Assembly: GCF_056746865.1 (NCBI RefSeq) | Contig: NZ_CM163382.1 | Direction: 5' to 3' (one strand) | Length of the DNA: 64,000 nucleotides | Part shown: positions 3,644 to 51,269 of the stretch, piece by piece | How the letters are laid out: each line of letters opens with the position of its first letter | Numbering within the stretch: the stretch's first letter is position 1 | Made by a program: the position numbers and the translations under genes | Notes under the pieces: model-generated | What the model was told of the DNA's origin: nothing | Databases searched by the model: none | The model's input: only the letters and a program-made list of their open reading frames with translations

Positions 3644-4342
3644 ATGACCGAAAACGCTGTTCTCCAGTTACGCGCCGAGCGTATTGCGCGCGCAACACGT
3701 CCTTTTCTTGCCCGCGGAAATCGCGTTCGTCGCTGCCAACGCTGTCTTTTGCCAGAGAAATTATGTCTCTGTTCGACAATTACCCCAGCACAAGCAAAAA
3801 GTCGCTTTTGTTTGCTGATGTTCGACACCGAGCCAATGAAGCCCAGTAATACCGGGCGTCTGATTGCTGATATTTTGCCTGATACCGTTGCGTTTCAATG
3901 GTCGCGTACCGAACCCTCGCAAGATTTGCTGGATCTGGTGCAAAACCCGGACTATCAACCAATGGTGGTCTTTCCCGCCTCGTATGCTGACGAGCAACGG
4001 GAAGTGATCTTCACACCACCTGCCGGTAAGCCACCGCTGTTTATCATGCTCGATGGCACCTGGCCAGAAGCTCGCAAGATGTTTCGTAAAAGTCCGTATC
4101 TGGATAATCTTCCCGTCATTTCCGTCGATCTTTCCCGGCTTTCTGCCTATCGCCTGCGTGAAGCCCAGGCTGAAGGCCAATATTGTACTGCCGAAGTAGC
4201 CATCGCACTGTTAGATATGGCCGGCGATACCGGGGCGGCGGCAGGGTTAGGCGAGCATTTTACCCGCTTTAAAACACGCTATCTGGCAGGAAAAACGCAA
4301 CATCTGGGTAGCATCACAGCAGAACAGTTAGAAAGCGTTTAA
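3644..4342 (+). CDS. yfiP: DTW-domain tRNA-uridine aminocarboxypropyltransferase YfiP (TapT)
   Basis: ORF 3593..4342 contains CQRC...LCLC cysteine motif and DGTW motif; start approximate. Confidence 0.75.
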   Translation: MTENAVLQLRAERIARATRPFLARGNRVRRCQRCLLPEKLCLCSTITPAQAKSRFCLLMFDTEPMKPSNTGRLIADILPDTVAFQWSRTEPSQDLLDLVQNPDYQPMVVFPASYADEQREVIFTPPAGKPPLFIMLDGTWPEARKMFRKSPYLDNLPVISVDLSRLSAYRLREAQAEGQYCTAEVAIALLDMAGDTGAAAGLGEHFTRFKTRYLAGKTQHLGSITAEQLESV

Positions 4343-4373
4343 AATCATTCGGTCACTTCTGCGGGAGACCGGT

Positions 4374-7034
4374 ATGAGTCAGCGAGGACTGGAAGCACTA
4401 CTGCGACCAAAATCGATTGCGGTAATTGGCGCATCGATGAAACCCAATCGCGCAGGTTACCTGATGATGCGTAACCTGCTGGCGGGAGGCTTTAACGGAC
4501 CGGTACTCCCGGTGACGCCAGCCTGGAAAGCGGTGTTGGGTGTGTTGGCCTGGCCGGATATTGCCAGCTTGCCCTTTACACCCGACCTTGCGGTTTTATG
4601 TACTAATGCCAACCGTAATCTTGTTCTTCTGGAAGTGCTCGGCGAGAAAGGCTGTAAAACCTGCATTATTCTTTCCGCCCCGGCATCGCAACATGAAGAT
4701 CTCCGCGCCTGCGCCCTGCGCCATAACATGCGCCTGCTAGGACCAAACAGTCTGGGCTTACTGGCTCCCTGGCAAGGTCTGAATGCCAGCTTTTCGCCTG
4801 TGCCGATTAAACGCGGCAAGCTGGCGTTTATTTCGCAATCGGCTGCTGTCTCCAACACCATCCTCGACTGGGCGCAACAGCGTGAGATGGGCTTTTCCTA
4901 CTTTATTGCGCTCGGCGACAGCCTGGATATCGACGTTGATGAATTGCTCGACTATCTGGCGCGCGACAGTAAAACCAGCGCCATCCTGCTCTATCTCGAA
5001 CAGTTAAGCGACGCACGACGCTTTGTTTCGGCGGCCCGTAGTGCCTCTCGCAATAAACCGATTCTGGTGATTAAAAGCGGACGTAGCCCGGCGGCTCAAC
5101 GTCTGTTGAACACCACGGCAGGAATGGATCCGGCGTGGGATGCGGCTATTCAGCGTGCCGGTTTGTTGCGGGTACAGGATACTCACGAGCTGTTTTCGGC
5201 GGTGGAAACCCTCAGCCATATGCGCCCGCTGCGTGGCGACCGGCTGATGATTATCAGCAACGGTGCTGCGCCTGCCGCGCTGGCGCTGGATGCCTTATGG
5301 TCACGCAATGGCAAGCTGGCAACGCTAAGCGAAGAAACCTGCCAGAAACTGCGCGATGCACTGCCAGAACATGTGGCAATCTCTAACCCGCTCGATCTAC
5401 GCGATGACGCCAGCAGTGAGCACTATATTAAAACGCTGGATATTCTGCTCCACAGCCAGGATTTTGACGCGCTGATGGTTATTCATTCGCCCAGCGCCGC
5501 TGCTCCCGCAACAGAAAGTGCGCAAGCATTAATTGAAGCGGTAAAGCATCATCCCCGCAGCAAGTATGTTTCTCTGCTGACGAACTGGTGTGGCGAGTAC
5601 TCCTCGCAAGAGGCACGACGATTATTCAGTGAAGCCGGGCTGCCGACCTATCGCACGCCGGAAGGAACCATCACTGCTTTTATGCATATGGTGGAGTACC
5701 GGCGTAATCAGAAGCAACTACGCGAAACGCCGGCGTTGCCCAGCAATCTGACCTCCAATACCGCAGAAGCGCATCTTCTGTTGCAACAGGCGATTGCCGA
5801 AGGGGCTACGTCGCTTGATACCCATGAGGTTCAGCCCATCCTGCAAGCGTATGGCATGAACACGCTCCCCACCTGGATTGCCAGCGATAGCACCGAAGCG
5901 GTGCATATTGCCGAACAGATTGGTTATCCGGTGGCGCTGAAATTGCGTTCGCCGGATATTCCACATAAATCGGAAGTTCAGGGCGTCATGCTCTACCTGC
6001 GTACAGCTAATGAAGTCCAGCAAGCGGCAAACGCTATTTTCGATCGCGTAAAAATGGCCTGGCCGCAGGCGCGGATCCACGGCCTGTTAGTGCAAAGTAT
6101 GGCTAACCGTGCTGGCGCTCAGGAGTTGCGGGTTGTGGTTGAGTACGATCCGGTTTTCGGGCCGTTGATCATGCTGGGCGAAGGCGGTGTGGAGTGGCGT
6201 CCTGAAGATCAAGCCGTCGTCGCGTTACCACCGCTGAACATGAACCTGGCCCGCTATCTGGTTATTCAGGGGATCAAAAGTAAAAAGATTCGTGCGCGCA
6301 GTGCGCTACGCCCATTGGATGTTGCAGGCTTGAGCCAGCTTCTGGTGCAGGTTTCCAACTTGATTGTCGATTGCCCGGAAATTCAACGTCTGGACATTCA
6401 TCCTTTGCTGGCTTCTGGCAGTGAATTTACCGCGCTGGACGTCACGCTGGATATCGCGCCGTTTGAAGGCGATAACGAGAGCCGGCTGGCAGTGCGCCCT
6501 TATCCACATCAGCTGGAAGAGTGGGTAGAATTGAAAAACGGTGAACGCTGCTTGTTCCGCCCGATTTTGCCAGAAGATGAGCCACAACTTCAGCAGTTCA
6601 TTTCGCGAGTCACCAAAGAAGATCTTTATTACCGCTACTTTAGCGAGATCAACGAATTTACCCATGAAGATTTAGCCAACATGACGCAGATCGACTACGA
6701 TCGGGAAATGGCGTTTGTAGCGGTACGACGTATTGATCAAACGGAAGAGATCCTCGGCGTCACGCGTGCGATCTCCGACCCTGATAACATCGATGCCGAA
6801 TTTGCCGTGCTGGTTCGCTCGGATCTCAAAGGGTTAGGCTTAGGTCGACGCTTAATGGAAAAGTTGATTACCTATACGCGAGATCACGGACTGCAACGTC
6901 TGAATGGTATTACGATGCCAAACAATCGTGGCATGGTGGCGCTGGCCCGCAAGCTCGGGTTTAACGTTGATATCCAGCTCGAAGAGGGGATCGTTGGGCT
7001 TACGCTAAATCTTGCCCAGCGCGAGGAATCATGA
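4374..7034 (+). CDS. patZ: protein lysine acetyltransferase PatZ/YfiQ (acyl-CoA synthetase-like + GNAT)
   Basis: 886-aa ORF, CoA-binding/ATP-grasp-like N-terminal part and C-terminal GNAT region; matches K-12 size and position. Confidence 0.9.
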   Translation: MSQRGLEALLRPKSIAVIGASMKPNRAGYLMMRNLLAGGFNGPVLPVTPAWKAVLGVLAWPDIASLPFTPDLAVLCTNANRNLVLLEVLGEKGCKTCIILSAPASQHEDLRACALRHNMRLLGPNSLGLLAPWQGLNASFSPVPIKRGKLAFISQSAAVSNTILDWAQQREMGFSYFIALGDSLDIDVDELLDYLARDSKTSAILLYLEQLSDARRFVSAARSASRNKPILVIKSGRSPAAQRLLNTTAGMDPAWDAAIQRAGLLRVQDTHELFSAVETLSHMRPLRGDRLMIISNGAAPAALALDALWSRNGKLATLSEETCQKLRDALPEHVAISNPLDLRDDASSEHYIKTLDILLHSQDFDALMVIHSPSAAAPATESAQALIEAVKHHPRSKYVSLLTNWCGEYSSQEARRLFSEAGLPTYRTPEGTITAFMHMVEYRRNQKQLRETPALPSNLTSNTAEAHLLLQQAIAEGATSLDTHEVQPILQAYGMNTLPTWIASDSTEAVHIAEQIGYPVALKLRSPDIPHKSEVQGVMLYLRTANEVQQAANAIFDRVKMAWPQARIHGLLVQSMANRAGAQELRVVVEYDPVFGPLIMLGEGGVEWRPEDQAVVALPPLNMNLARYLVIQGIKSKKIRARSALRPLDVAGLSQLLVQVSNLIVDCPEIQRLDIHPLLASGSEFTALDVTLDIAPFEGDNESRLAVRPYPHQLEEWVELKNGERCLFRPILPEDEPQLQQFISRVTKEDLYYRYFSEINEFTHEDLANMTQIDYDREMAFVAVRRIDQTEEILGVTRAISDPDNIDAEFAVLVRSDLKGLGLGRRLMEKLITYTRDHGLQRLNGITMPNNRGMVALARKLGFNVDIQLEEGIVGLTLNLAQREES

Positions 7035-7147
7035 GTAAGGTACTGGAAATGTTGACCACTTAATCGGGACTGGTGTTATTATTGCCCGCTTATGTCGTCT
7101 GCATTGCACAGAGGACCCTTCAATGAACAGAGAAGAAATGCACTGTG

Positions 7148-8503
7148 ATGTTGTCAAAATTTAAGCGTAATAAACATCAACAACACCTTGCCCAACTACC
7201 CAAGATTTCTCAATCAGTTGATGATGTCGATTTCTTTTACGCTCCCGCCGACTTCCGGGAGACGCTGCTGGAAAAAATAGCCAGCGCGAAGCAGCGCATT
7301 TGCATTGTCGCCCTGTATCTCGAACAGGATGACGGTGGCAAAGGCATTCTGAACGCGTTGTATGAGGCTAAAAGGCAGCGTCCGGAACTGGATGTGCGGG
7401 TGCTGGTCGACTGGCATCGTGCACAACGTGGACGCATTGGCGCTGCGGCATCTAACACTAACGCTGACTGGTACTGCCGCATGGCGCAGGAAAATCCGGG
7501 CGTAGATGTTCCGGTTTATGGCGTTCCAATCAATACCCGTGAAGCCCTTGGTGTTCTGCACTTTAAAGGCTTTATCATCGACGATAGCGTACTTTATAGC
7601 GGTGCCAGCCTGAACGATGTTTACCTGCATCAGCACGATAAATATCGCTACGACCGTTATCATCTTATCCGTAACCGTAAGATGTCAGACATTATGTTTG
7701 AATGGGTTACACAGAATATTATGAATGGCCGCGGCGTTAATCGTCTGGATGATGTTAATCGGCCAAAAAGCCCGGAAATCAAGAACGATATTCGTCTGTT
7801 CCGCCAGGAGCTGCGTGATGCCGCTTATCATTTCCAGGGCGATGCCGACAACGATCAGCTTTCCGTAACGCCGTTGGTAGGTCTGGGGAAATCGAGTCTG
7901 TTGAACAAGACCATTTTCCATCTTATGCCTTGTGCCGAGCAGAAACTAACCATCTGCACACCATACTTCAACCTGCCAGCAATCCTTGTGCGCAATATCA
8001 TCCAGTTACTGCGCGAAGGGAAAAAGGTCGAAATTATTGTTGGTGATAAAACCGCGAATGACTTCTACATTCCGGAAGATGAACCTTTCAAGATAATTGG
8101 CGCATTGCCTTATCTCTATGAGATCAATCTGCGTCGTTTCCTGAGCCGTTTGCAGTATTACGTCAATACTGACCAGTTAGTGGTTCGGTTATGGAAAGAT
8201 GACGACAACACCTATCACCTGAAAGGGATGTGGGTTGATGATAAGTGGATGTTGATCACCGGTAATAACCTGAACCCGCGCGCCTGGCGTCTGGATCTGG
8301 AAAACGCCATTTTGATCCACGATCCGCAACTGGAGCTTGCGCCACAGCGAGAGAAAGAACTGGAGCTGATCCGCGAGCATACCACCATCGTTAAGCACTA
8401 TCGCGATCTGCAAAGTATTGCCGATTATCCGGTGAAGGTTCGTAAACTCATCCGTCGTTTGCGCCGTATCCGCATCGACCGATTAATTAGCCGCATCCTG
8501 TAA
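7148..8503 (+). CDS. pssA: CDP-diacylglycerol-serine O-phosphatidyltransferase (phosphatidylserine synthase)
   Basis: ORF 7145..8503; two HxK-type PLD motifs (LHFKGFIID, YHLKGMWVDD). Confidence 0.93.
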   Translation: MLSKFKRNKHQQHLAQLPKISQSVDDVDFFYAPADFRETLLEKIASAKQRICIVALYLEQDDGGKGILNALYEAKRQRPELDVRVLVDWHRAQRGRIGAAASNTNADWYCRMAQENPGVDVPVYGVPINTREALGVLHFKGFIIDDSVLYSGASLNDVYLHQHDKYRYDRYHLIRNRKMSDIMFEWVTQNIMNGRGVNRLDDVNRPKSPEIKNDIRLFRQELRDAAYHFQGDADNDQLSVTPLVGLGKSSLLNKTIFHLMPCAEQKLTICTPYFNLPAILVRNIIQLLREGKKVEIIVGDKTANDFYIPEDEPFKIIGALPYLYEINLRRFLSRLQYYVNTDQLVVRLWKDDDNTYHLKGMWVDDKWMLITGNNLNPRAWRLDLENAILIHDPQLELAPQREKELELIREHTTIVKHYRDLQSIADYPVKVRKLIRRLRRIRIDRLISRIL

Positions 8504-39960: not shown

Positions 39961-40323
39961 GGGGCTGATTCTGGATTCGACGGGATTTGCGAAACCCAAG
40001 GTGCATGCCGAGGGGCGGTTGGCCTCGTAAAAAGCCGCAAAAAATAGTCGCAAACGACGAAAACTACGCTTTAGCAGCTTAATAACCTGCTTAGAGCCCT
40101 CTCTCCCTAGCCTCCGCTCTTAGGACGGGGATCAAGAGAGGTCAAACCCAAAAGAGATCGCGTGGAAGCCCTGCCTGGGGTTGAAGCGTTAAAACTTAAT
40201 CAGGCTAGTTTGTTAGTGGCGTGTCCGTCCGCAGCTGGCAAGCGAATGTAAAGACTGACTAAGCATGTAGTACCGAGGACGTAGGAATTTCGGACGCGGG
40301 TTCAACTCCCGCCAGCTCCACCA
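39961..40323 (+). ncRNA. ssrA: tmRNA (transfer-messenger RNA, 10Sa RNA)
   Basis: Starts GGGGCTGATTCTGGATTCGACGGG, contains tag-coding GCAAACGACGAAAACTACGCTTTAGCAGCTTAA and ends GGTTCAACTCCCGCCAGCTCCACCA; 363 nt. Confidence 0.97.
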
Positions 40324-40489: not shown

Positions 40490-41737
40490 ATGCCTAAGCA
40501 ACTGAAACCCTTAACAAATGTGGAGATCGCTGGCGCGAAGCCCCGTAGCACGGATTATGAGCTACGGGACGGTGAAGGCCTGTACTTGCTGGTTAAGACT
40601 TCAGGGAGGAAGGCCTGGCATTTCGAGTATTATCATCCCGTCACCAAAAAGCGCACCAAAACCAGCCTTGGCCCTTACCCGGTCGTTACACTGGCCATGG
40701 CTCGCGAAACTCGCACGAAATACAGACGACTGCTCTGGCAGGGCATCGATCCCCGTCAACACTTAGCAGGAATAGCCGAAGAAAAACGCCTCCAGAATGA
40801 ATGCACGCTGGAAAAAGTTGCGGAACAGTGGCTCAAAGAGAAGAAACGGACCAGCGACCTTAGCGAAGATCACGCCAAAGATGTCTGGCGCTCGCTGGAG
40901 ATGCACGTCTTCCCTTCTCTGGGCAGTACGCCCGTCACCGAGATCCGCCCGAAGATGCTCAAGGAACACCTCACCCCGCTGGAAGAACAGGGCATCCTCG
41001 AAACGCTGCGCCGGGTTATCTCACGGCTCAATGAAATCTTCCGCTTCGCCATCTCCGAAGAGCTTATCGAGTTTAACCCAGCAGACAACCTGGTCGCCCG
41101 CTTCAAGAAACCGAAAAAGCAGAACATGCCCGCCCTTCCCCCCAGCGAACTGGGCAGACTAATGTTGGCACTACAAAACGCCTCTATCCGCAAGGAAACA
41201 CGCTGCCTTATCGAATGGGAGCTACTGACCTGGGTTCGCCCCGGCGAAGCCGTTAGCGCCCGCTGGTGCGACATCGATATGAAAAAAGCGGAATGGCGTA
41301 TCCCTGACACCTTTATGAAGATGAACCGTTCACACACGGTGCCGCTCAGCAAACAGGCGCTGCGTGTTCTTCAGATCATGGAGCCCGTCAGCCGCCATCG
41401 TCCGTGGGTCTTCCCCAGCATCCGCAAACCGCTGGAGCACATGCACCAGCAGACCGCGAACGCCGCGCTTATCCGCATGGGGTTCGGCGGTGAGCTGGTC
41501 GCCCACGGCATGCGCAGCATCGCCAGAACGGCGGGCGCAGGTCATTTTCCCCGTGAAGTTCTGGAATCTGCACTGGCACACCAGAAAGAAGACGAGATCG
41601 AAGCGGCCTACAATCGCAGCGACTATCTGGAACAAAGGCGACCGCTCATGCAGTGGTGGGGAAACTACGTTGATGCCGCCAGACGGCAGGCATTGCTCGG
41701 TGAAGAAGAACCGCTGCGGATCGTGGAAGGAGAATAA
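40490..41737 (+). CDS. P4-type tyrosine integrase
   Basis: 415-aa ORF; clear similarity to recalled CP4-57 IntA (MxxQxKPLTxxEIxxAKP...NRSDYLEQRRPMMQWW), with HGMRSIAR and YNRSDY catalytic-region motifs. Confidence 0.92.
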   Translation: MPKQLKPLTNVEIAGAKPRSTDYELRDGEGLYLLVKTSGRKAWHFEYYHPVTKKRTKTSLGPYPVVTLAMARETRTKYRRLLWQGIDPRQHLAGIAEEKRLQNECTLEKVAEQWLKEKKRTSDLSEDHAKDVWRSLEMHVFPSLGSTPVTEIRPKMLKEHLTPLEEQGILETLRRVISRLNEIFRFAISEELIEFNPADNLVARFKKPKKQNMPALPPSELGRLMLALQNASIRKETRCLIEWELLTWVRPGEAVSARWCDIDMKKAEWRIPDTFMKMNRSHTVPLSKQALRVLQIMEPVSRHRPWVFPSIRKPLEHMHQQTANAALIRMGFGGELVAHGMRSIARTAGAGHFPREVLESALAHQKEDEIEAAYNRSDYLEQRRPLMQWWGNYVDAARRQALLGEEEPLRIVEGE

Positions 41738-41738
41738 T

Positions 41739-42383
41739 GTGACCAGTCCCATTCGTCAGAATCTGTTTGAACGGGAATGCGATATGCCGCTGCTGGAAGC
41801 GCGGCATCTCGCCCTTCTGCTTCTCGGCCTTGATGCTTCCCAACCTGCAAACGCCCTGCCGGAAGAACATCAGGAAAATTACCGTATCCTGCACGACGCC
41901 ATCAGTCGCACCATCAAAGCAACGGGCATGGTCAGCGCCCCGGCGAACAAACGCATGTTCTATGCCGATGAAATGTTCGCGCTGGCCTGGCGGCTTATTG
42001 ATGACGAACTCACGCCGCCAGAAATTAAGGCCCGGAGCCTGAAGGCAGTGATGAAACTGTCACGCAACAGCCGTGGCCGCAAGTGGCTGAAGACGCTCGG
42101 CGACGATGCGCTGCCGGATCTCACTGCTTCCACACAACCTTCCCTGCGTGGGATGCATAAGCGCGACAAAGCACGGGAGAATACTGCCAGGCTCTGCTGG
42201 TTACTGGTTCAGCTTCTGGTTGATGAGACTGACGGACGGTATGGCACGTCTGATAAACCGGCTTCGGATCGGATACTTCGGAAGCTGAAGGAGCTGGCGC
42301 AGGAGCGGGAATTACCGTCAGACGGGCTTGGGCGAGGGACGTTTTATGAGGTTTTGAAGATGGGAAGGGAGAAGGAAGTTTAG
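41739..42383 (+). CDS. hypothetical island protein (about 214 aa)
   Basis: In-frame GTG one codon after the integrase stop with GGAAGGAG 7 nt upstream; the longer ORF 41364..42383 overlaps the integrase and is trimmed. Confidence 0.5.
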   Translation: MTSPIRQNLFERECDMPLLEARHLALLLLGLDASQPANALPEEHQENYRILHDAISRTIKATGMVSAPANKRMFYADEMFALAWRLIDDELTPPEIKARSLKAVMKLSRNSRGRKWLKTLGDDALPDLTASTQPSLRGMHKRDKARENTARLCWLLVQLLVDETDGRYGTSDKPASDRILRKLKELAQERELPSDGLGRGTFYEVLKMGREKEV

Positions 42384-42732: not shown

Positions 42733-43905
42733 TTAGAGAACCTTAGACTGTTCTGGGAACCAGTTATTAATTATATGTCTTCGACAGACTTTAGATATTT
42801 CAAATACCTGTCGTGACACTAATGCACCATCAGGATGGCGCTGGTCAGGTATGTCATTTTCTATGTCATAAAAATTATGCGTTATTTCTGGGGGAAAGAA
42901 AACGTTTTTGTCTAAAGGCACGCTTGCATAGGGATTATAATACACATGCAAACCATCAAAATGAGTTTCCTTGTAGTCCCTTGTTCGGCACATTACAATA
43001 TCCGCGCCAACAACCTCATTGTTGTAGAATTGTCGCTTCGTAGTAACATAATGGTCAGGACCAAGTTTTCTCGTATGAGAACCTTCGTTCTTCATACCTT
43101 CATTGGCAATAAAAACATTCACATCAAGAGCTCGGAATCTCGTATATCGGACATATCGATCGACCCGACTCTGAACGATAGCCTTACCAAAAGTACCTGT
43201 CGTTGAAAACACGATAGCACTGATTTCTTTGTATGAGTCATTTGTAAAAATACCTAAAGGTATTTCAGTGTCTTCATTTTTTTTAATCGATAAAACCCTT
43301 CTTTGCCTACCATTTACTAAATCTCTCATCGTAGGTTCTTCAATGCCAAACAATACCCGGTTAATGATTGTATTATTCTGGGTTAAAGATAGATCTGAAT
43401 CAAATGGGGCCAATGCTAACACAAAAGGCTTACCGATTACATGTTCCATTGTTGAGTATGGGAACTTCTTACCATTAATTCCGGTAAAGAGATCGCGCTT
43501 ATCTTTAATTTTCCCAAGAAGTTTTAGCGTAGATTGATGCTTAAACTTAGCTTCACTGAAAATTTCACTGACTGGCGGTTTATGGGGCTTGTCAGAGACC
43601 ATAGCCTCTACGTTAAATTTATAACCTAATGGCGTGCTAACACAAAAATCAGGACTGTCTTTTGTATAGTCAACCGAATACCCCAAACGAATAAACATCT
43701 CATTTAGATATAATTCCCACATAGAAGAATTAAAGGTAGTCTGAAATTCGTTAATAAATTTAGTTTGTTCACCACTGCGTTCCAGTAATCCGCGTCCCCA
43801 TGATTGGATCACCGCCCTAACAGGAGCAAGTTTAGGATCTGTGTAGATTGTTTTAAAATTGTGATTTAGTTTATTTCTAGCTATTTTTGTTGAGAAGAGA
43901 TCCAT
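42733..43905 (-). CDS. hypothetical 390-aa protein, opposite strand, AT-rich
   Basis: Long uninterrupted ORF with good RBS (agaggtaaataATG); no family recognised. Confidence 0.7.
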   Translation of the reverse strand: MDLFSTKIARNKLNHNFKTIYTDPKLAPVRAVIQSWGRGLLERSGEQTKFINEFQTTFNSSMWELYLNEMFIRLGYSVDYTKDSPDFCVSTPLGYKFNVEAMVSDKPHKPPVSEIFSEAKFKHQSTLKLLGKIKDKRDLFTGINGKKFPYSTMEHVIGKPFVLALAPFDSDLSLTQNNTIINRVLFGIEEPTMRDLVNGRQRRVLSIKKNEDTEIPLGIFTNDSYKEISAIVFSTTGTFGKAIVQSRVDRYVRYTRFRALDVNVFIANEGMKNEGSHTRKLGPDHYVTTKRQFYNNEVVGADIVMCRTRDYKETHFDGLHVYYNPYASVPLDKNVFFPPEITHNFYDIENDIPDQRHPDGALVSRQVFEISKVCRRHIINNWFPEQSKVL

Positions 43906-45497: not shown

Positions 45498-45682
45498 AAT
45501 TAACACCAAGGCTGTGCCCGGCCTTTTATCTATGCAACGTAGCCGATGACAGTTAACGGTGAGACAGCAACACCTGTTGTAACATGTTTGTACTCGTGCA
45601 TTGCCATCCGTAGGCCTAAACATATCTGACTCCCACAGGATGGGGATAAAATACAACATTTGCATTTTCAATTTGTTATCGA

Positions 45683-45732
45683 AAAATCATTAGTCCTGAT
45701 GGGAAATAATATCTTCCCGGACTAATGATTTT
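45683..45732. promoter_or_regulatory. 50-bp region with perfect 14-bp inverted repeat upstream of alpA (operator or terminator)
   Basis: aaaatcattagtcc (45683-45696) and ggactaatgatttt (45719-45732) are exact reverse complements; followed by repeated tatccgg motifs. Confidence 0.45.
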
Positions 45733-45831
45733 CTATCCGGACTCCACTTTTTTATCCGGGCCTATACCTCCCCTCATCGTTCCGCGCTATAACCGCTCCG
45801 ACACTCTGTTCCCGTCCCGTGAGGTGCAATC

Positions 45832-46047
45832 ATGAAAACCAGTGCAGACAGTAACGATGCTTTTCCCGAAAGCGGCAACGTGCGTATGCGGCAGGTAGTC
45901 CAGTTTCTGGCGATGAGTGAATCGTCGGTTTACCGCCTGATTAAAAACACCGACTTTCCCCGCCCCGTCCACCTCTCTTCCCGACTGGTGGTCTTCGATG
46001 CTGCTGAAATCCGTCAGTGGCAACAGCGCCGCGCCGCCATCCGTTAA
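45832..46047 (+). CDS. alpA: AlpA-family phage transcriptional regulator (HTH)
   Basis: 71-aa ORF with RMRQVVQFLAMSESSVYRLIKNTDFPRPV helix-turn-helix typical of AlpA. Confidence 0.85.
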   Translation: MKTSADSNDAFPESGNVRMRQVVQFLAMSESSVYRLIKNTDFPRPVHLSSRLVVFDAAEIRQWQQRRAAIR

Positions 46048-46082
46048 TCCACGCTCAGGGATGAGCCGACTGATACCCCGTC

Positions 46083-48152
46083 ATGAAACGCGCCCCTTTT
46101 CTCTGTAAGCAGTCTCCGGACCGCACGCTCGAAGTGGTGATCCTTGCCGGAAGCCTGGCATGGGAGACCTCACACGTGTGGCGAAAAGATCCCGACCGGG
46201 AAGATGATGTTCCCCCGATGGTACTCGGCCCGGATGAACTGGCCGATCTGAGCAATCTGACCATTATCAGGCCCGACACGCTCTACGTCCGGGTACTTCG
46301 CACCGGCGATATCAGTGAAGAAGAGCTGCTGAAAATTGCCGTAAAACTGGCGCACGCGGGCGTGCAGATGGCCCGGCTGATGACCCCTGACGGTGAGTTA
46401 CTGGAGAACTGGACCGGACAGCTTGAACGCCTGCGACAGGAAAGACCTTCTGACATCCTGCCGGATCACTTCCGCCTCGATGAAGAAGCACTGTGGTTTG
46501 ATAAGCTCACCGAACGGCGCGACGGTGAAAGCGATGTCCAGCCCCAGCGCATCTGTTCCCCTCTGCGCGTCACTGCCATCACCTGCGACAGCCATGACGG
46601 CAGCTATGGCCGCCTGCTGGAATGGCACACCACCACCGGGCAATTGCGGCGCTGGGCCATGCCGATGGCGATGCTCAGCGGCAACGGCGAGGAGCTGAGG
46701 CGCATTCTGCTGGAGAACGGCCTGACCTATATCTCCACCCGCCCTGCCCTGCGCAGTCTGCTGTGCGAATATATCTCGCGGTCACTCCCCGGACGCCGGG
46801 TCACCTGCGCGGAGAAAACCGGCTGGCACAACGGCGTGTACGTGCTGCCGGATGAGGTTATCGGTCCCGATGGCGACAACGTCATTCTCCAGGGCAGCCA
46901 CTACCTGACTGGCGGCTTTGCACAATCCGGTACGCTGGCAGAGTGGCAGGAGCAGGTCGCCGCGCTCTGTGCAGGCAATTCACGGCTGGTCTTTGCCGTC
47001 TGCTGTGCGCTGGCCGCCCCGCTGCTGCGCCTGACAGGAACGGGCGGCGGAGGCTTTCATCTGCGCGGTGAGTCCACTGACGGTAAGACCACGGTGATGA
47101 AAGTGGCCGCTTCCGTCTGTGGCGGGACGGATTACTGGCACTCCTGGCGGGCCACCGGGAATGCGCTGGAAGGAATTGCCAGCCGCCACAACGATGCCCT
47201 GCTGCCACTTGATGAACTGCGCGAAGTGGACCCGCGTGAGGCCGGGATGATTGCCTATATGCTGGCGAACGGACAGGGCAAGGGGCGCGCCCGCACCGAT
47301 GGCGAAGTGCGTAACCGCAGGCACTGGACGCTGCTGCTGTTCTCCACCGGGGAGCTGTCGCTGGCGGAACACACCGAATGCGCCGGGGAGCGCCTCTACG
47401 CCGGGATGGACGTGCGCATGGTACAAATCCCCAGCGACACCGGGCAGCATGGTTCGTTTGAGCAGTTGCACGGGTTTGCCAGCGGCCAGCAGTTCGCCGA
47501 TACTCTCTGCGACCGGGTGGCCCGCTTCCACGGCACCGCCTTTCGTGCCTGGCTGGCCTTCCTCACCAGCGACCTGGACGCCAGCACCACGCTGGCGAGA
47601 GAGTTACTTCGCCGCTACCAGACCGCCCTGATGCCGGACAACGCCGGAAACCAGGTGCAGCGCATCGTGGCCCGTTTTGCCCTGCTGGCGGTGGCCGGGG
47701 AGATAGCGACACTGAACGGTATCACGGGCTGGCAGGAAGGCTCGGCGTATGGGGCGGTGCAGATCTGCCTTCACGCCTGGCTGAACGAGCGCGGCCATAT
47801 TGCCAACCAGGAAGATGAAGGCGTGCTGGCGCAGATCAAGCGGTTCATTACCGCGCACCAGTACAGCCGCTTTGCCTCGTGGGATGGCCCGGACCGCCCG
47901 CTGAATATGGCAGGCTTTCGCCGGGTGGAAAAAGATCCGCTGACGGGCGAGGAACACACGCTGTTCTTCATCCTGCCTGAGGGCTGGCGGGAAATATGCC
48001 GGGGATTCAGTCCTGCCAGAGCGGCCAGATTATGCCAGGAAGCGGAATGCCTGCTGCCCGGCAGCGACGGGAAATACCAGTCGCAGGTTCGCCTGCCGGA
48101 GATCGGCAAAGCCAGAGTCTACCGCCTCACCTCCCGCATCCTCAGTATCTGA
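46083..48152 (+). CDS. P4 alpha-like primase/helicase-type replication protein (P-loop NTPase C-terminal half)
   Basis: 689-aa ORF, Walker A GESTDGKTTV, position after alpA as in P4-like and PICI elements; GC-rich unlike the cargo. Confidence 0.75.
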   Translation: MKRAPFLCKQSPDRTLEVVILAGSLAWETSHVWRKDPDREDDVPPMVLGPDELADLSNLTIIRPDTLYVRVLRTGDISEEELLKIAVKLAHAGVQMARLMTPDGELLENWTGQLERLRQERPSDILPDHFRLDEEALWFDKLTERRDGESDVQPQRICSPLRVTAITCDSHDGSYGRLLEWHTTTGQLRRWAMPMAMLSGNGEELRRILLENGLTYISTRPALRSLLCEYISRSLPGRRVTCAEKTGWHNGVYVLPDEVIGPDGDNVILQGSHYLTGGFAQSGTLAEWQEQVAALCAGNSRLVFAVCCALAAPLLRLTGTGGGGFHLRGESTDGKTTVMKVAASVCGGTDYWHSWRATGNALEGIASRHNDALLPLDELREVDPREAGMIAYMLANGQGKGRARTDGEVRNRRHWTLLLFSTGELSLAEHTECAGERLYAGMDVRMVQIPSDTGQHGSFEQLHGFASGQQFADTLCDRVARFHGTAFRAWLAFLTSDLDASTTLARELLRRYQTALMPDNAGNQVQRIVARFALLAVAGEIATLNGITGWQEGSAYGAVQICLHAWLNERGHIANQEDEGVLAQIKRFITAHQYSRFASWDGPDRPLNMAGFRRVEKDPLTGEEHTLFFILPEGWREICRGFSPARAARLCQEAECLLPGSDGKYQSQVRLPEIGKARVYRLTSRILSI

Positions 48153-48171
48153 GTGCCATCTCGCGTGTCTT

Positions 48172-48382
48172 AAAAAAAGGTGGTACAGGGTGGGACAAGT
48201 GGTACACGCAGAGCTGGCGCGGGTTTCAGCGTCCCACTTTAGATAATTTGGTTTAAAAAAAGTGGTACAGAGTGGGACAGCCGTTGCTGAATCTGTCCCA
48301 CTTTTCTGACTGGTATTTTTCAGGTGGTACAGCGCAAAGCCACGGCTGGCGCGGTTGTACCACTTGTCCCACCTGTACCACC
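48172..48382. repeat. iteron-like direct and inverted repeats (putative replication origin / cis replication region)
   Basis: ggtggtacagggtgggacaagtggtacac, gtggtacagagtgggaca, ggtggtacagcgc and the inverted copy ggttgtaccacttgtcccacctgtaccacc read directly, immediately 3' of the primase gene. Confidence 0.6.
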
Positions 48383-48824
48383 TTAAAAACAGAAGAAATG
48401 AAAATGGCGAAAAGGGACTGCAAAAGCAAAGGCTGAAAGGAAGAGAGAATAAGGGGAACGGACTTACTCTTAAATGGATAACCTATATTTTTATATTCGT
48501 ACCATTTACATGATGGAGTGCAAAGTTACCATTCAACATGATTTGGATTAGATAGCAAAATTCTCTATAGAATGTTTTCTAGATTTCAGAGGGATTTAAC
48601 GATAGCTTATCTCACAAATCACAAATCGGTCAAAAAATATACAGAAAACCAAGTTTTGCCCAGAAATCCTTTTAAAATTTTTGAGTTAAAAATCATTGTG
48701 TTGTATTAATTTCAGGACGCCACATGTCAAATATCGACACCCAATATAGTGTATAAAAACACAGGAGGACTCATTGTGATTTATATAATAAAATAACCTT
48801 ATACATCTTTCTGGAAACCAAGTA

Positions 48825-49811
48825 ATGGTTAAAATTCACATTTTAGATGCCGGACATGGTGATTGCTTGTTAGTAGACTGCGATGGTGTCAAATTGTTAA
48901 TTGACGCTGGCCCAAGTACATTTAGGTATAGAAAAAAAATTTCAGCCAAGTTAGCTGAACTTCTGAATGGCGAGTCTGTTGATATCGCTTTTGTAACTCA
49001 CAATGATGATGACCATATCGGTGGTTTCAAATACCTAATTGAAAATAAAATAAACATCAAGAGATTTGTATTCAATAGTTTATCTAACATTAAACATGTA
49101 ATAAAGAATTCAAGCAATAAAATATCGACCAAACAAGATATAAATCTTGATAGAATAGTGAAAGATGGAAGTTTTGTCTTTTCGACACTAACTTCAGATG
49201 ACTCTCCTATTTTAATCAGAAATATAAAAATAACACCTATTACTCCTTCAAAAAATATCCTTTTAAAATATTTAGAACAACAAGAGCGTAAAAACACAGA
49301 AATTAAAATATCATCTTCATCTGAAAAATATAGTATTAAAGAAGCACTGCAGTTGCTAAGCAATGGAAATGATATGTTTGTAAAGGATCCATCGGCAACT
49401 AATAAAACCAGTTTATCATTTATGATTGAGTATGGGAATTTTTGTGGATTATTCCTTGGTGATGCACACGAAGAAGACATCTACTCATATATGGCTAATC
49501 ATTGTGCCAATAGAAAAATATCATTTAACGTTGTTAAGTTAGCACATCATGGTAGTGAAAAAAACACGAGTTCACGGTTATTGAAGTTAATTGGTACAAC
49601 AGAATATATCATATGTGCGAATAAAACCAAGCATAATCATCCAAATAATTTAACTCTTGCAAGAATTTTAATACATGAACAAGAACCTAAAATTCATATG
49701 AGTAGCAGCAATCAGGAGATAATAAATTTACTCAATCAAATAAATTTATTAGGCTTCGGCATTACTGCAACCCATTCTGAAAATGGAGTTAATACTTTAA
49801 TCTATGAGTAG
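48825..49811 (+). CDS. metallo-beta-lactamase-fold protein, ComEC-like (putative nuclease/hydrolase)
   Basis: 328-aa ORF: ILDAGHGDCLLVDCDGVKLLIDAG start, THNDDDHIGG metal-binding-like motif, AHHGSEKNTS motif; very AT-rich. Confidence 0.7.
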   Translation: MVKIHILDAGHGDCLLVDCDGVKLLIDAGPSTFRYRKKISAKLAELLNGESVDIAFVTHNDDDHIGGFKYLIENKINIKRFVFNSLSNIKHVIKNSSNKISTKQDINLDRIVKDGSFVFSTLTSDDSPILIRNIKITPITPSKNILLKYLEQQERKNTEIKISSSSEKYSIKEALQLLSNGNDMFVKDPSATNKTSLSFMIEYGNFCGLFLGDAHEEDIYSYMANHCANRKISFNVVKLAHHGSEKNTSSRLLKLIGTTEYIICANKTKHNHPNNLTLARILIHEQEPKIHMSSSNQEIINLLNQINLLGFGITATHSENGVNTLIYE

Positions 49812-51269
49812 AAAAAATGCTGTAAAAATAAAAGTCAATGATTCGGAATCAAGTGGCTATTTTTTCAAAGCAAGCTCCAAGGATGATTCTTTTGTAATTT
49901 CATCCAAGCACGGCCTTTGTTCTAGACAGTCAGATTGTGAAGAATTTCTTGATAATGTTCAGAATTGTTGCCGTTTATGCACTCAAGATTTAAATATTGA
50001 CAATATATCTTTTGAAATTGAAGGAAATAAGAAGCTAAAGCCAATAAGTTATTTCAGTCTTGAAAACAAAGATATTGTCATCACCAAAGTGGATGGGGTA
50101 TCTAATTATCCTTTAAGGATAGGAAAGATAGAAAAAGAAAAGTATTATACTTATGGTTACAAGAGTAAATGTGATAAGCCTGGCAGAATTTTATTAAATG
50201 AGCCAGATTTATTAGATGGGATTTGTTATTTCAATATATGTTCCGATGCAACACCTGAGTTGATTGAGAAAAGTGAAGAATATTATGGAATTTCAGGTTC
50301 ATTAGTTTTTGATTCTCCAGAAAAAGATGTTTTAACCGCACATGCAGTAATAACAACTAATGAAACCAATAATGACTTAGGTTCAGAAATATTACATGAT
50401 ATTGATTTCAAAGAAATTAATAACTTTTTCGGCTGTGAAGTATTCTTGGGTAAAAAACTCCAATTTCAACTAGATGATACTTTTAGTAAAAATTTTTCAA
50501 AGATTGGAGAAGTGCTTGTTAGCGACAAACTCCAAATTGAAATATTTATTTCATCTTATAAAGGTATACCATATTTTAATTTGACACCAATTGCTGATGC
50601 ATTAATTCAAAGTAAGTTTTATTATGTTTTTGGAAATGTTAGTAGAAGTGATCATATAAATATAATCGCTGCATCAAACATTATACTCAACAAATCTCAT
50701 TTAGAACCAGCTAATAAATTATTAACTAGCAAATTAACTGAATCGATATTATCAGCACCTCATATTTATTCCACTAGCATTGATGATAATAATTATCATC
50801 ATATTCATTTTAAACAAATGACTTCTGGTGATATTGAGCTCATAATATCATGTTATGGTGGAGGAGATGATCTTCCTAAAGATATAAATGGCACTTTAAC
50901 TGAGTTGTTACACAATATAAATACTTATAACTTAAATAAAAATTCAATAATTGAGAGGTCTTTTCTTAATCAAAAATTTACAGATGCACAATGCGAAATT
51001 TTATATGAGATTTTTTTGAGCGATTAACTGATTCAATCGACAGAATTTCATTATTGCATGTAATTCCTTTGGACCATTATTTAATAAAAGATAAATCAGA
51101 AATTAAAAATGAAATTATTACCATTGTTGAGAAAGCGTGTCAAGAATTAGACAGCAACATTTTAGATTATCTTGAGCATGGAATATCTATAAATCTATTA
51201 ATATTTCCAACTAATAATAAAGATGAATTATCAGGGTTAATGCAAAGGTTGATAAATAATTATGAATGA
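49804..51269 (+). CDS. protein with trypsin-like serine protease-type motifs; reading frame interrupted at a T7 run (ORFs 49804..51027 and 51054..51269 probably one gene)
   Basis: Start overlaps the MBL gene stop by 8 nt (ATGAGTAG); motifs SSKHGLC, NKDIVITKV, GISGSLVF; frame 1 stops at 51027 while frame 0 stays open from the T7 run (51011-51017) to 51269 and has no ATG or RBS of its own. Confidence 0.6.

What the first reader, a model, noticed from the sequence alone, without database searches (positions are those of the whole stretch)
48155..48390. Iteron-like repeat cluster with a 29-bp inverted repeat directly after the primase gene: putative origin
Within ~230 bp after the primase stop there are several copies of GTGGTACAG and GTGGGACA units, each preceded by A-runs (aaaaaaaggtggtacagggtgggacaagtggtacac; aaaaaaagtggtacagagtgggacag), and an inverted copy ggttgtaccacttgtcccacctgtaccacc. 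This is the arrangement expected for a replication-protein binding region (P4 crr/ori-like, PICI ori). It is not CRISPR-like: there are no regular spacers.
Basis: partly seen in the sequence, partly recalled or inferred. Interest (0 to 1): 0.5.

Follow-up and report, generated by a model that had tools for sequence, protein, structure and literature searches.

The report
Replication origin beside an island's helicase gene
The repeats are real and are most likely the replication origin of a mobile island inserted at the E. coli ssrA gene. They would be bound by the initiator-helicase encoded just upstream, an ordinary arrangement already known from phage satellites, although that gene is not a primase.

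Summary
Ten exact GTGGKACA units plus one 7/8 copy lie in 48180-48381, starting 27 nt after the stop codon. The whole 64-kb window holds 12 against 2.5 expected. The outer triplets form the reported inverted repeat, with a one-base offset.

The interpretation as an origin is supported, but not by experiment. The upstream gene (46083-48152) is a DUF927 initiator-helicase related to the SaPI Rep and SCCmec Cch proteins. Its predicted C-terminal domain is a winged helix. No primase domain was detectable, so "primase" is a mislabel.

In 59 of 80 related loci the same layout follows the gene. The median is 11 copies, with the first 27 nt after the stop and a span of about 194 nt. Only one cluster occurs per locus. 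The 8-9-bp unit differs by lineage.

Among E. coli and Citrobacter, 0 of 80 iteron columns vary against 16 of 141 spacer columns. In Serratia, 9 of 10 units carry the same single-base change. In three near-identical protein pairs with different units, 12 of 26 fixed residue changes fall in the last 50 residues.

The layout matches the tested EcCICFT073 origin and the SaPI origins. It is not P4's two-part ori/crr. Verdict: a new member of a known kind, of modest interest.

The parts
45832..46047 (+). alpA (AlpA-family regulator/excisionase). This is the first gene of the conserved alpA-rep-ori module.
   Evidence: Pfam Phage_AlpA, E = 2e-23. RefSeq annotation. The module 45664-48481 is conserved with Citrobacter.
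46083..48152 (+). DUF927 Rep-type initiator-helicase, 689 aa.
   Evidence: Pfam DUF927, E = 1e-106, over aa 130-413. NCBIfam Cch1 helicase. PDB hits are SaPI Rep 8tch (E = 5.5e-17) and Cch 5dgk. No Toprim or primase domain was found.
46083..46457 (+). N-terminal domain (aa 1-125) of unknown function. It replaces the Zn-ribbon and Toprim primase part found in the P4-like relatives.
47700..48149 (+). C-terminal domain (aa 540-689), a predicted winged helix and the presumed iteron-recognition domain.
48172..48178 (+). A7 tract before the left iteron triplet.
   Evidence: Sequence. Repeat D3/D5.
48180..48206 (+). Left iteron triplet GTGGTACA-GTGGGACA-GTGGTACA, with starts 10 and 9 bp apart. It forms the left arm of the inverted repeat.
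48213..48225 (+). First copy of a second conserved motif, GCTGGCGCGGGTT. Its role is unknown.
   Evidence: Repeat D9. Conserved in Citrobacter and largely in Serratia.
48231..48238 (-). Degenerate iteron (GTGGGACg, 7 of 8).
   Evidence: It is altered in Citrobacter sedlakii L009.
48238..48261 (.). AT-rich patch TTTAGATAATTTGGTTTAAAAAAA, a candidate DNA-unwinding region.
   Evidence: GC is 0.33-0.38 here against about 0.63 in the flanks. Sequence.
48262..48279 (+). Internal iteron pair GTGGTACA-GTGGGACA, preceded by an A7 run at 48254-48260.
   Evidence: It is the second copy of the 82-bp-spaced 28-nt direct repeat.
48294..48301 (-). Internal inverted iteron GTGGGACA.
48324..48331 (+). Internal direct iteron GTGGTACA.
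48345..48357 (+). Second copy of the GCTGGCGCGGTT motif.
48356..48381 (-). Right iteron triplet, with starts 9 and 9 bp apart. It forms the right arm of the inverted repeat and converges on the left triplet.
48385..48470 (+). Purine-rich tract (78% A+G) that travels with the module. Its role is unknown. The module ends at about 48481.

Best explanation
The cluster at 48172-48384 is the replication origin of an integrative island inserted next to ssrA. Its core genes are int, alpA and rep, all in one direction. The 8-9-bp units (G)GTGGKACA are iterons recognised by the C-terminal winged-helix domain of the DUF927 protein encoded just upstream. That protein is both initiator and replicative helicase, as in the SaPI Rep proteins. 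By analogy with SaPI and PICI, AlpA-driven expression after a trigger would produce Rep. Rep would assemble on the two converging outer triplets and the internal copies. Direct copies start 82 and 62 bp apart, so they lie on roughly the same face of the helix. Rep would then melt the AT-rich DNA between the arrays, load itself as opposed hexamers and start bidirectional replication of the excised circle. Shown here: the repeats and their statistics, the protein's homology, the predicted fold, the family-wide layout, selection on the units, and concerted unit changes matched by changes in the winged helix. Inferred: binding, melting, loading, the trigger, and how primers are made. No primase domain was detectable, so a host primase may be used.
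For: The units are enriched and confined: 12 in the window against 2.5 expected, with 10 in 202 bp. The protein is a SaPI Rep/Cch homologue. Its C-terminal model has pLDDT 91.7 and is a winged helix closest to the SaPI Rep C-terminal domain. The published definition of SaPI origins matches point by point. That definition is 6-12 iterons right after rep, an AT-rich centre, and at least two iterons on each side in opposite orientation, bound by the winged helix of the C-terminal domain (PMC9371898). The experimentally tested EcCICFT073 origin has the same layout (PMC6092414; sequence). Of 80 related loci from Enterobacterales to Burkholderiales, 59 hold at least 9 copies of a lineage-specific unit in the 450 nt after the stop. 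The median is 11 copies, with the first 27 nt after the stop and a span of 194 nt. In 45 of the 59 the outer arrays converge. Each locus has a single cluster: 7-15 copies in the 300 nt after the stop, against about 0.03-0.6 per 300 nt elsewhere in nearly all loci. Among E. coli and two Citrobacter species, 0 of 80 iteron columns vary against 16 of 141 spacer columns (P = 7e-4). Serratia L012 has K changed to A at 9 of 10 units. The Proteus pair L014/L017 and the pair L002/L024 show the same kind of concerted one-base switch in otherwise alignable DNA. In three near-identical protein pairs with different units, 12 of 26 fixed differences lie in the last 50 of 564 aligned residues (P = 7e-7). 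They map to the predicted recognition helix and wing. The unit alpA-rep-cluster (45664-48481) moves as one block between different cargo contexts.
Against: There is no experimental evidence for binding or replication of this element. The Rep has no detectable primase, and no separate primase gene lies in the module. No capsid, packaging or interference genes were seen in the part of the island inside the window, so it may not be an active satellite. Relatives show decay. L010 has rep but no cluster, L009 has a stop inside rep, L011 is truncated, and the Salmonella copy has lost 82 bp. A coarse test linking unit class to protein columns across all Enterobacterales loci was only weakly positive.
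Confidence: 0.78

Rival explanations
1. The cluster is an origin by descent but is no longer used. The island would be a domesticated, immobile defence and metabolic island, and the cluster a relic.
For: The Rep lacks a primase domain. No packaging or capsid genes were found in the window part of the island. Decay is seen in relatives L009, L010, L011 and L090. No attR was found in the window.
Against: The 689-codon rep ORF is intact, and the cluster region is at least 99% identical in 132 of the 134 E. coli genomes that carry it. The units are invariant across E. coli and Citrobacter while the spacers change (0 of 80 against 16 of 141), which indicates ongoing selection. A copy sits on a Salmonella IncHI2 plasmid, which implies recent mobility.
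Confidence: 0.12
2. The cluster is a crr-like cis-acting replication enhancer, as downstream of P4 alpha. The true start site would lie elsewhere.
For: P4 crr occupies the same position, directly 3' of the initiator gene, and uses a related unit, GGTGAACA.
Against: There is no second cluster of the unit in the 64-kb window, even allowing one mismatch. None was found within about 4 kb on either side in 57 related loci. The protein belongs to the SaPI Rep/Cch family, not the P4 alpha D5 family.
Confidence: 0.05
3. It is a nucleic-acid structure rather than a protein-binding array. The candidates are a long hairpin in the rep mRNA 3' end (terminator or stabiliser) or a cruciform or single-strand initiation signal.
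For: As single-stranded DNA the region folds to -59.3 kcal/mol, z = -8.1 against shuffles.
Against: Complementarity stops at the edges of the iteron triplets. Internal direct copies that have no partner are equally conserved and change in concert. No terminator-like site was found. No Rfam family matched. The strong fold is an automatic consequence of converging arrays.
Confidence: 0.03
4. It is an operator, packaging (pac/cos) or partition site bound by some other protein, such as AlpA, a terminase or a ParB-like protein.
For: Repeated short units with A-tracts are generic protein-binding architecture.
Against: No copy of the unit lies near the alpA or int promoters or anywhere else in the island. 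No terminase or partition genes were seen in the window part of the island. The array always follows the DUF927 gene, whatever the neighbouring genes are.
Confidence: 0.02

Closest known systems
SaPI Rep and ori (SaPIbov1, SaPI1, SaPI5; Staphylococcus aureus pathogenicity islands)
   Different: The units here are 8-9 bp rather than 5-6 bp. The host is Gram-negative. The N-terminal domain is unrelated and of unknown function, and there is no fused or adjacent primase. The island carries defence and sugar-uptake cargo rather than packaging genes.
EcCICFT073 pri-ori (E. coli PICI; the origin was tested by plasmid rescue, PMC6092414)
   Same: The island order is int, alpA, replication gene, origin. 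The iterons (TGTCTACC/GGTAGAYA) begin just after the stop. The outer arrays are inverted, about 190 nt apart, around an AT-rich stretch.
   Different: The EcCICFT073 protein is of the D5_N/DUF5906/Pox_D5 type, not DUF927. The unit sequence differs. EcCICFT073 carries capsid, head-decoration and cos functions, which were not seen here.
Satellite phage P4 alpha with ori and crr
   Same: crr lies directly 3' of the initiator gene. The unit is related (GGTGAACA against GGTGGKACA). DUF927 relatives of the window protein sit in P4-like satellites that carry psu, delta and Icd-like genes.
   Different: P4 alpha is a Zn-ribbon, Toprim and D5 helicase protein. P4 needs two separate clusters, ori and crr, about 4.5 kb apart, and crr is two 120-bp direct repeats. 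Here and in 57 relatives there is one cluster with converging arrays.
SCCmec Cch/Cch2 (DUF927 MCM-like helicases)
   Same: They share the DUF927 helicase core (NCBIfam Cch1; 5dgk).
   Different: I did not compare any SCC origin here. The host is Gram-positive and the element type differs.
HTH plus DUF927 gene pairs of the MGIVchHai6 and MGIVflInd1 mobilisable islands
   Same: A small HTH (AlpA/Xis-like) gene is followed by a DUF927 gene in an integrative island of a Gram-negative host (PMC7449626).
   Different: In those islands the role of the pair is reported as elusive and dispensable for mobilisation. I did not examine whether they have an adjacent iteron cluster.

Membership tests
SaPI/PICI-type Rep-iteron origin | The iteron cluster lies immediately 3' of the rep open reading frame. 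| tested here: met
   The stop codon ends at 48152 and the first unit starts at 48180. The median offset in relatives is 27 nt.
SaPI/PICI-type Rep-iteron origin | About 6-12 short iterons. | tested here: met
   There are 10 exact copies and one 7/8 copy of an 8-9-bp unit. The units are longer than the 5-6 bp of SaPIs.
SaPI/PICI-type Rep-iteron origin | Two sets of iterons in opposite orientation flank an AT-rich region. | tested here: met
   The triplets 48180-48206 (+) and 48356-48381 (-) converge. The AT-rich patch 48238-48261 has GC 0.33-0.38.
SaPI/PICI-type Rep-iteron origin | The adjacent protein is an initiator-helicase with a C-terminal winged-helix domain. | tested here: met
SaPI/PICI-type Rep-iteron origin | Iteron sequence and Rep specificity change together between elements. 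| tested here: met
   Concerted one-base switches occur in all or most units. Of 26 fixed protein differences, 12 lie in the last 50 residues in three close pairs. The coarse family-wide test was weak.
SaPI/PICI-type Rep-iteron origin | Rep binds the iterons, and the cluster supports Rep-dependent replication. | not testable with these tools
   This needs EMSA or footprinting and a conditional-replicon rescue.
P4 ori/crr system | The initiator is an alpha-type protein: Zn-ribbon, Toprim primase and D5-type helicase. | tested here: not met
   The window protein has DUF927 only. P4 alpha has Zn_Ribbon_Prim, Toprim, D5_N, DUF5906 and Pox_D5.
P4 ori/crr system | Type I repeat TGTTCACC. | tested here: not met
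   The unit here is GTGGKACA. The P4 units are GGTGAACA. They are related in form but not identical.
P4 ori/crr system | Two separate clusters, ori and crr, are both required. | tested here: not met
   There is one cluster in 64 kb and one per locus in relatives.
P4 ori/crr system | A cluster lies directly 3' of the initiator gene. | tested here: met
   P4 crr is at 4291-4590, next to the end of alpha at 4636. The window cluster starts 27 nt after the stop.
Gram-negative PICI (the island as a whole) | int, alpA and the replication gene are transcribed in one direction, with the origin after the replication gene. | tested here: met
   int is at 40490-41737 (+), alpA at 45832-46047 (+) and rep at 46083-48152 (+).
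Gram-negative PICI (the island as a whole) | Phage-derived capsid, packaging or interference genes, or a cos/pac site. | tested here: inconclusive
   None were found among the annotated genes up to about window 60300, which are defence and sugar-uptake genes instead. I did not search for cos or pac sites, and the right end of the island is outside the window.
Gram-negative PICI (the island as a whole) | Helper-phage-dependent excision, replication and transfer. | not testable with these tools
   This requires experiments.
Theta-plasmid iteron origins (RepA, Pi, TrfA class) | Tandem 17-22-bp direct iterons, DnaA boxes, and an initiator without helicase activity. | tested here: not met
   The units are 8-9 bp in both orientations. 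There is no DnaA box or IHF site within one mismatch. The initiator is a helicase homologue.

The most novel reading that the evidence does not exclude
The DUF927 initiator-helicases of Gram-negative satellites and defence islands share one conserved origin grammar. Three direct units begin about 27 nt after the stop, internal units of mixed orientation follow, and three inverted units close the array, all in about 200 bp and with a single cluster per element. Specificity would be reset by one-base changes in every unit, matched by a few residues in the recognition helix and wing of the C-terminal winged helix. That would give a natural series of mutually orthogonal replicons. The window element would be a primase-less branch of this family, with a new N-terminal domain. 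This would also assign a function to the 'elusive' HTH-DUF927 pairs of other Gram-negative islands.
Probability: 0.35. Interest if true: 0.45.

Novelty: new member of a known kind. Interest (0 to 1): 0.3.

Why it matters
The finding marks the replication module, and so the likely autonomous-replication ability, of an ssrA-linked defence island present in about 2.5% of complete E. coli genomes and on a Salmonella IncHI2 plasmid. It corrects a "primase" reading to an initiator-helicase. The comparative data yield a concrete, testable DNA-recognition code. Unit position 5 (T/G, A, and so on) is matched against residues at about 644, 648, 664-668, 676-685. That code could explain compatibility between co-resident satellites, and it could provide orthogonal replicons. 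As a kind of element it is not new. Rep-adjacent iteron origins are established for SaPIs and for E. coli PICIs.

Tried and rejected
1. I looked for a second, P4-ori-like cluster. None exists in the window or in relatives.

2. I looked for an intrinsic terminator or a known RNA. There is no terminator-like site in the cluster and no Rfam match up to E = 1.

3. I looked for DnaA boxes and IHF sites. None lies within one mismatch.

5. A protein-database search with the N-terminal 125 aa returned only close, fragmentary relatives and was uninformative.

6. Family-wide mutual information between unit class and protein columns gave no fully discriminating column. Enrichment in the C-terminal stretch was only modest (same-class/different-class identity ratio 1.29 against 1.15-1.18). 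The close-pair comparison was the informative version of this test.

7. I searched for attR, a repeat of the ssrA 3' end. It was not found inside the window.

Full report
**What is there.** The window is E. coli chromosome. A tmRNA gene (ssrA) lies at 39961-40323. It is followed by an inserted island:
- integrase, 40490-41737 (+)
- a small ORF, 41739-42383
- a PD-T7-5-like gene, 42733-43905 (-)
- two further ORFs
- alpA, 45832-46047
- a 689-aa DUF927 protein, 46083-48152
- the repeat cluster
- AT-rich cargo

The cargo comprises an MBL-fold LmuA/Avs1a-like protein, an unmatched ORF, a HamB helicase in two pieces, an HTH gene and PTS genes.

There are ten exact GTGGKACA units, six on the + strand and four on the - strand, between 48180 and 48381. 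One 7/8 copy lies at 48231-48238. The whole window has 12 exact matches against 2.5 expected from shuffles. Ten in 202 bp has a Poisson probability of about 3e-28.

The outer triplets, 48180-48206 and 48356-48381, are inverted copies of each other with a one-base offset. A7 runs precede the first and second arrays. An AT-rich patch at 48238-48261 sits between them, with GC 0.33-0.38 against 0.63 in the flanks. Direct copies start 82 and 62 bp apart, which is close to whole numbers of helical turns.

**It is not a dispersed repeat.** The 351-bp region occurs once per genome in 134 of 5426 complete E. coli genomes, always at the end of the DUF927 gene. It is absent from the phage records. It occurs in two records of the plasmid collection. 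One is an IncHI2 plasmid of Salmonella, where it again follows alpA and the DUF927 gene. The other is a 4.9-Mb E. coli record that I did not examine further.

**The neighbouring gene.**
- It is not a recognisable primase. Pfam finds only DUF927, over aa 130-413. NCBIfam finds the SCCmec Cch1 replicative helicase.
- The best solved relatives are a SaPI replication initiator-helicase (8tch, E = 5.5e-17) and Cch (5dgk).
- Relatives of about 59% identity in P4-like satellites of E. coli carry a Zn-ribbon and a Toprim domain in front of DUF927. The window protein has an unrelated 125-aa N-terminal domain instead.
- That domain has no Pfam match and no profile similarity to the Toprim segment (hhalign probability 3.7%). 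Its predicted fold is a generic alpha/beta fold of moderate confidence.

**Comparison with characterised origins.**
- For SaPIs, the literature states that Rep is both initiator and helicase. Its C-terminal winged helix recognises the iterons. Six to twelve iterons lie immediately downstream of rep, with an AT-rich centre, and at least two iterons on each side point in opposite directions (PMC9371898).
- For Gram-negative PICIs, the same organisation directly 3' of the replication gene was reported. It was tested by plasmid rescue for EcCICFT073 (PMC6092414).
- I read the EcCICFT073 region. TGTCTACC/GGTAGAYA units begin just after the stop, and the outer arms are inverted about 190 nt apart around an AT-rich stretch. 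Its protein belongs to the D5 family, not DUF927.
- P4 crr also lies directly 3' of alpha and uses GGTGAACA. However, P4 has a second cluster (ori) 4.5 kb away, and its crr is two 120-bp direct repeats.
- The window has no second cluster, even with one mismatch allowed.

**Family-wide evidence.**
- A scan of one genome per species returned 80 loci encoding relatives of 33-96% identity, from Enterobacterales, Burkholderiales, Pseudomonas and others.
- Together with the loci fetched earlier and the window, 81 sequences could be read downstream of the gene. In the 450 nt after the stop, the best 8-mer (one mismatch, both strands) had 10.1 copies on average. It had 5.7 inside the gene and 5.3 about 900 nt further on.
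- After dropping the duplicate of the window locus (L001), 59 of these 80 loci have at least 9 copies. The median is 11, with the first 27 nt after the stop and a span of 194 nt. The outer arrays converge in 45 of the 59.
- The typical strand order is three direct, one inverted, two direct, one or two inverted, one direct, three inverted.
- The unit differs by lineage. It is GTGGKACA here and in Citrobacter, and GGTGRAACA, GGTAACA or GTGTAACA in other Enterobacterales. It is GGTGTGAC in Burkholderia, GGGTTACR in Caballeronia and TGGGGAC in Pseudomonas.
- Each locus has one cluster only.

**Selection and co-variation.**
- Among the window and two Citrobacter species, which are about 93% identical over the module, none of the 80 iteron columns varies. 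Sixteen of the 141 spacer columns do (Fisher P = 7e-4).
- The Serratia L012 origin aligns with the window's. Nine of its ten units show the same change at the K position, to A.
- The Proteus pair L014/L017 shows the switch GTGTAACA to GGGTAACA. The pair L002/L024 shows GGTGRAACA to GGTGTAACA. In both pairs the switch recurs in most units of both orientations, within otherwise alignable DNA.
- In three such pairs the proteins differ at only 6-11 fixed positions of 564. Twelve of the 26 differences lie in the last 50 residues against 2.3 expected (P = 7e-7).
- These fall at or next to the predicted recognition helix (aa 644, 648) and the wing strands (aa 664-668, 676-685) of the model.
- A cruder family-wide association test was only weakly positive.

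**Module boundaries.** Homology with Citrobacter runs from 45664 to 48481, covering alpA, rep, the cluster and an 86-nt purine-rich tract. It stops where the AT-rich cargo begins. The Salmonella plasmid copy has different cargo after the same boundary. It also has an exact 82-bp deletion between the two 28-nt direct repeats, which leaves seven units.

**Alternatives.**
- No terminator-like site lies in the cluster and no Rfam family matches. There are no DnaA or IHF sites.
- The strong single-strand fold (z = -8.1) follows automatically from converging arrays. It does not explain the conservation of unpaired internal copies.
- A relic origin cannot be excluded. The Rep lacks a primase, no packaging genes were seen, and some relatives are decayed.
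- Against a relic, the rep ORF is intact, the cluster is nearly identical in the E. coli genomes that carry it, and the units are invariant across genera.

**Conclusion.** The repeats are most likely the iteron origin of an alpA-rep-ori module of the SaPI/PICI kind, served by a DUF927 initiator-helicase. The PICI/SaPI analogy fits better than P4 ori/crr. This is a new member of a known kind. The conserved grammar and the one-base specificity switches are the only parts that may be new, and they are directly testable.

Noticed in passing
window 51262-52464 and 52503-53786: A Hachiman-type HamB helicase is split into two ORFs in different frames. They match PADLOC HamB model positions 4-400 and 413-842. 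RefSeq annotates both as intact CDS. It may be a frameshifted pseudogene or a natural split.
   Followed up: partly
window 48825-51027: An MBL-fold protein (LmuA/Avs1a/DRT-associated-like) is followed by a 407-aa ORF with no match in Pfam, NCBIfam or PADLOC. Both lie upstream of the HamB pieces. This may be an undescribed Hachiman-like defence variant.
   Followed up: no
window 42733-43905 (-): A PD-T7-5-like defence gene (PADLOC E = 2e-137) lies between int and alpA. This appears to be a second cargo slot of the island.
   Followed up: no
window ~48481 onward; L090 7410-9556; L008/L009 beyond ~6398: The position just after the origin is a cargo hotspot. It holds MBL/unknown/HamB in E. coli and AAA ATPase plus DUF4435 (PARIS-like) in the Salmonella plasmid copy. 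In Citrobacter, homology to the window simply ends at the same boundary.
   Followed up: partly
L090 (Salmonella pS2122_1) 6990-7220, against window 48170-48279: A natural 82-bp deletion lies exactly between the two 28-nt direct repeats of the origin. It leaves seven units. The island copy sits on an IncHI2A plasmid.
   Followed up: yes
window 48213-48225 and 48345-48357: A second repeated motif, GCTGGCGCGG(G)TT, lies inside the origin with 132-bp spacing. It is conserved in Citrobacter and largely in Serratia. It is not an iteron, and its role is unknown.
   Followed up: partly
window 48385-48470: An 86-nt purine-rich tract (78% A+G on the + strand) lies directly after the right triplet. It is conserved with the module in Citrobacter and Salmonella but not in Serratia. 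No RNA family matches it.
   Followed up: partly
L010 6040-6640; L009; L011: The module has decayed in some lineages. Buttiauxella keeps rep at 73% identity, but no unit repeats more than 4 times in the 450 nt after its stop, and DNA homology to the window ends inside the gene. In Citrobacter sedlakii rep has an internal stop, although the origin is intact. The Raoultella copy is truncated.
   Followed up: partly
L002-L006 (E. coli P4-like satellites): Many P4-like satellites that carry psu, delta and Icd-like genes use a Toprim-DUF927 protein instead of a P4-type (D5) alpha. They have a single origin cluster after it, with no separate P4-like ori.
   Followed up: partly
window 41739-42383: A 214-aa ORF starts two bases after the integrase stop (phrog_30524, function unknown). 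The same pairing is seen in L002 and L003. It recalls the integrase-overlapping gene (iolg) needed for PICMI excision.
   Followed up: no
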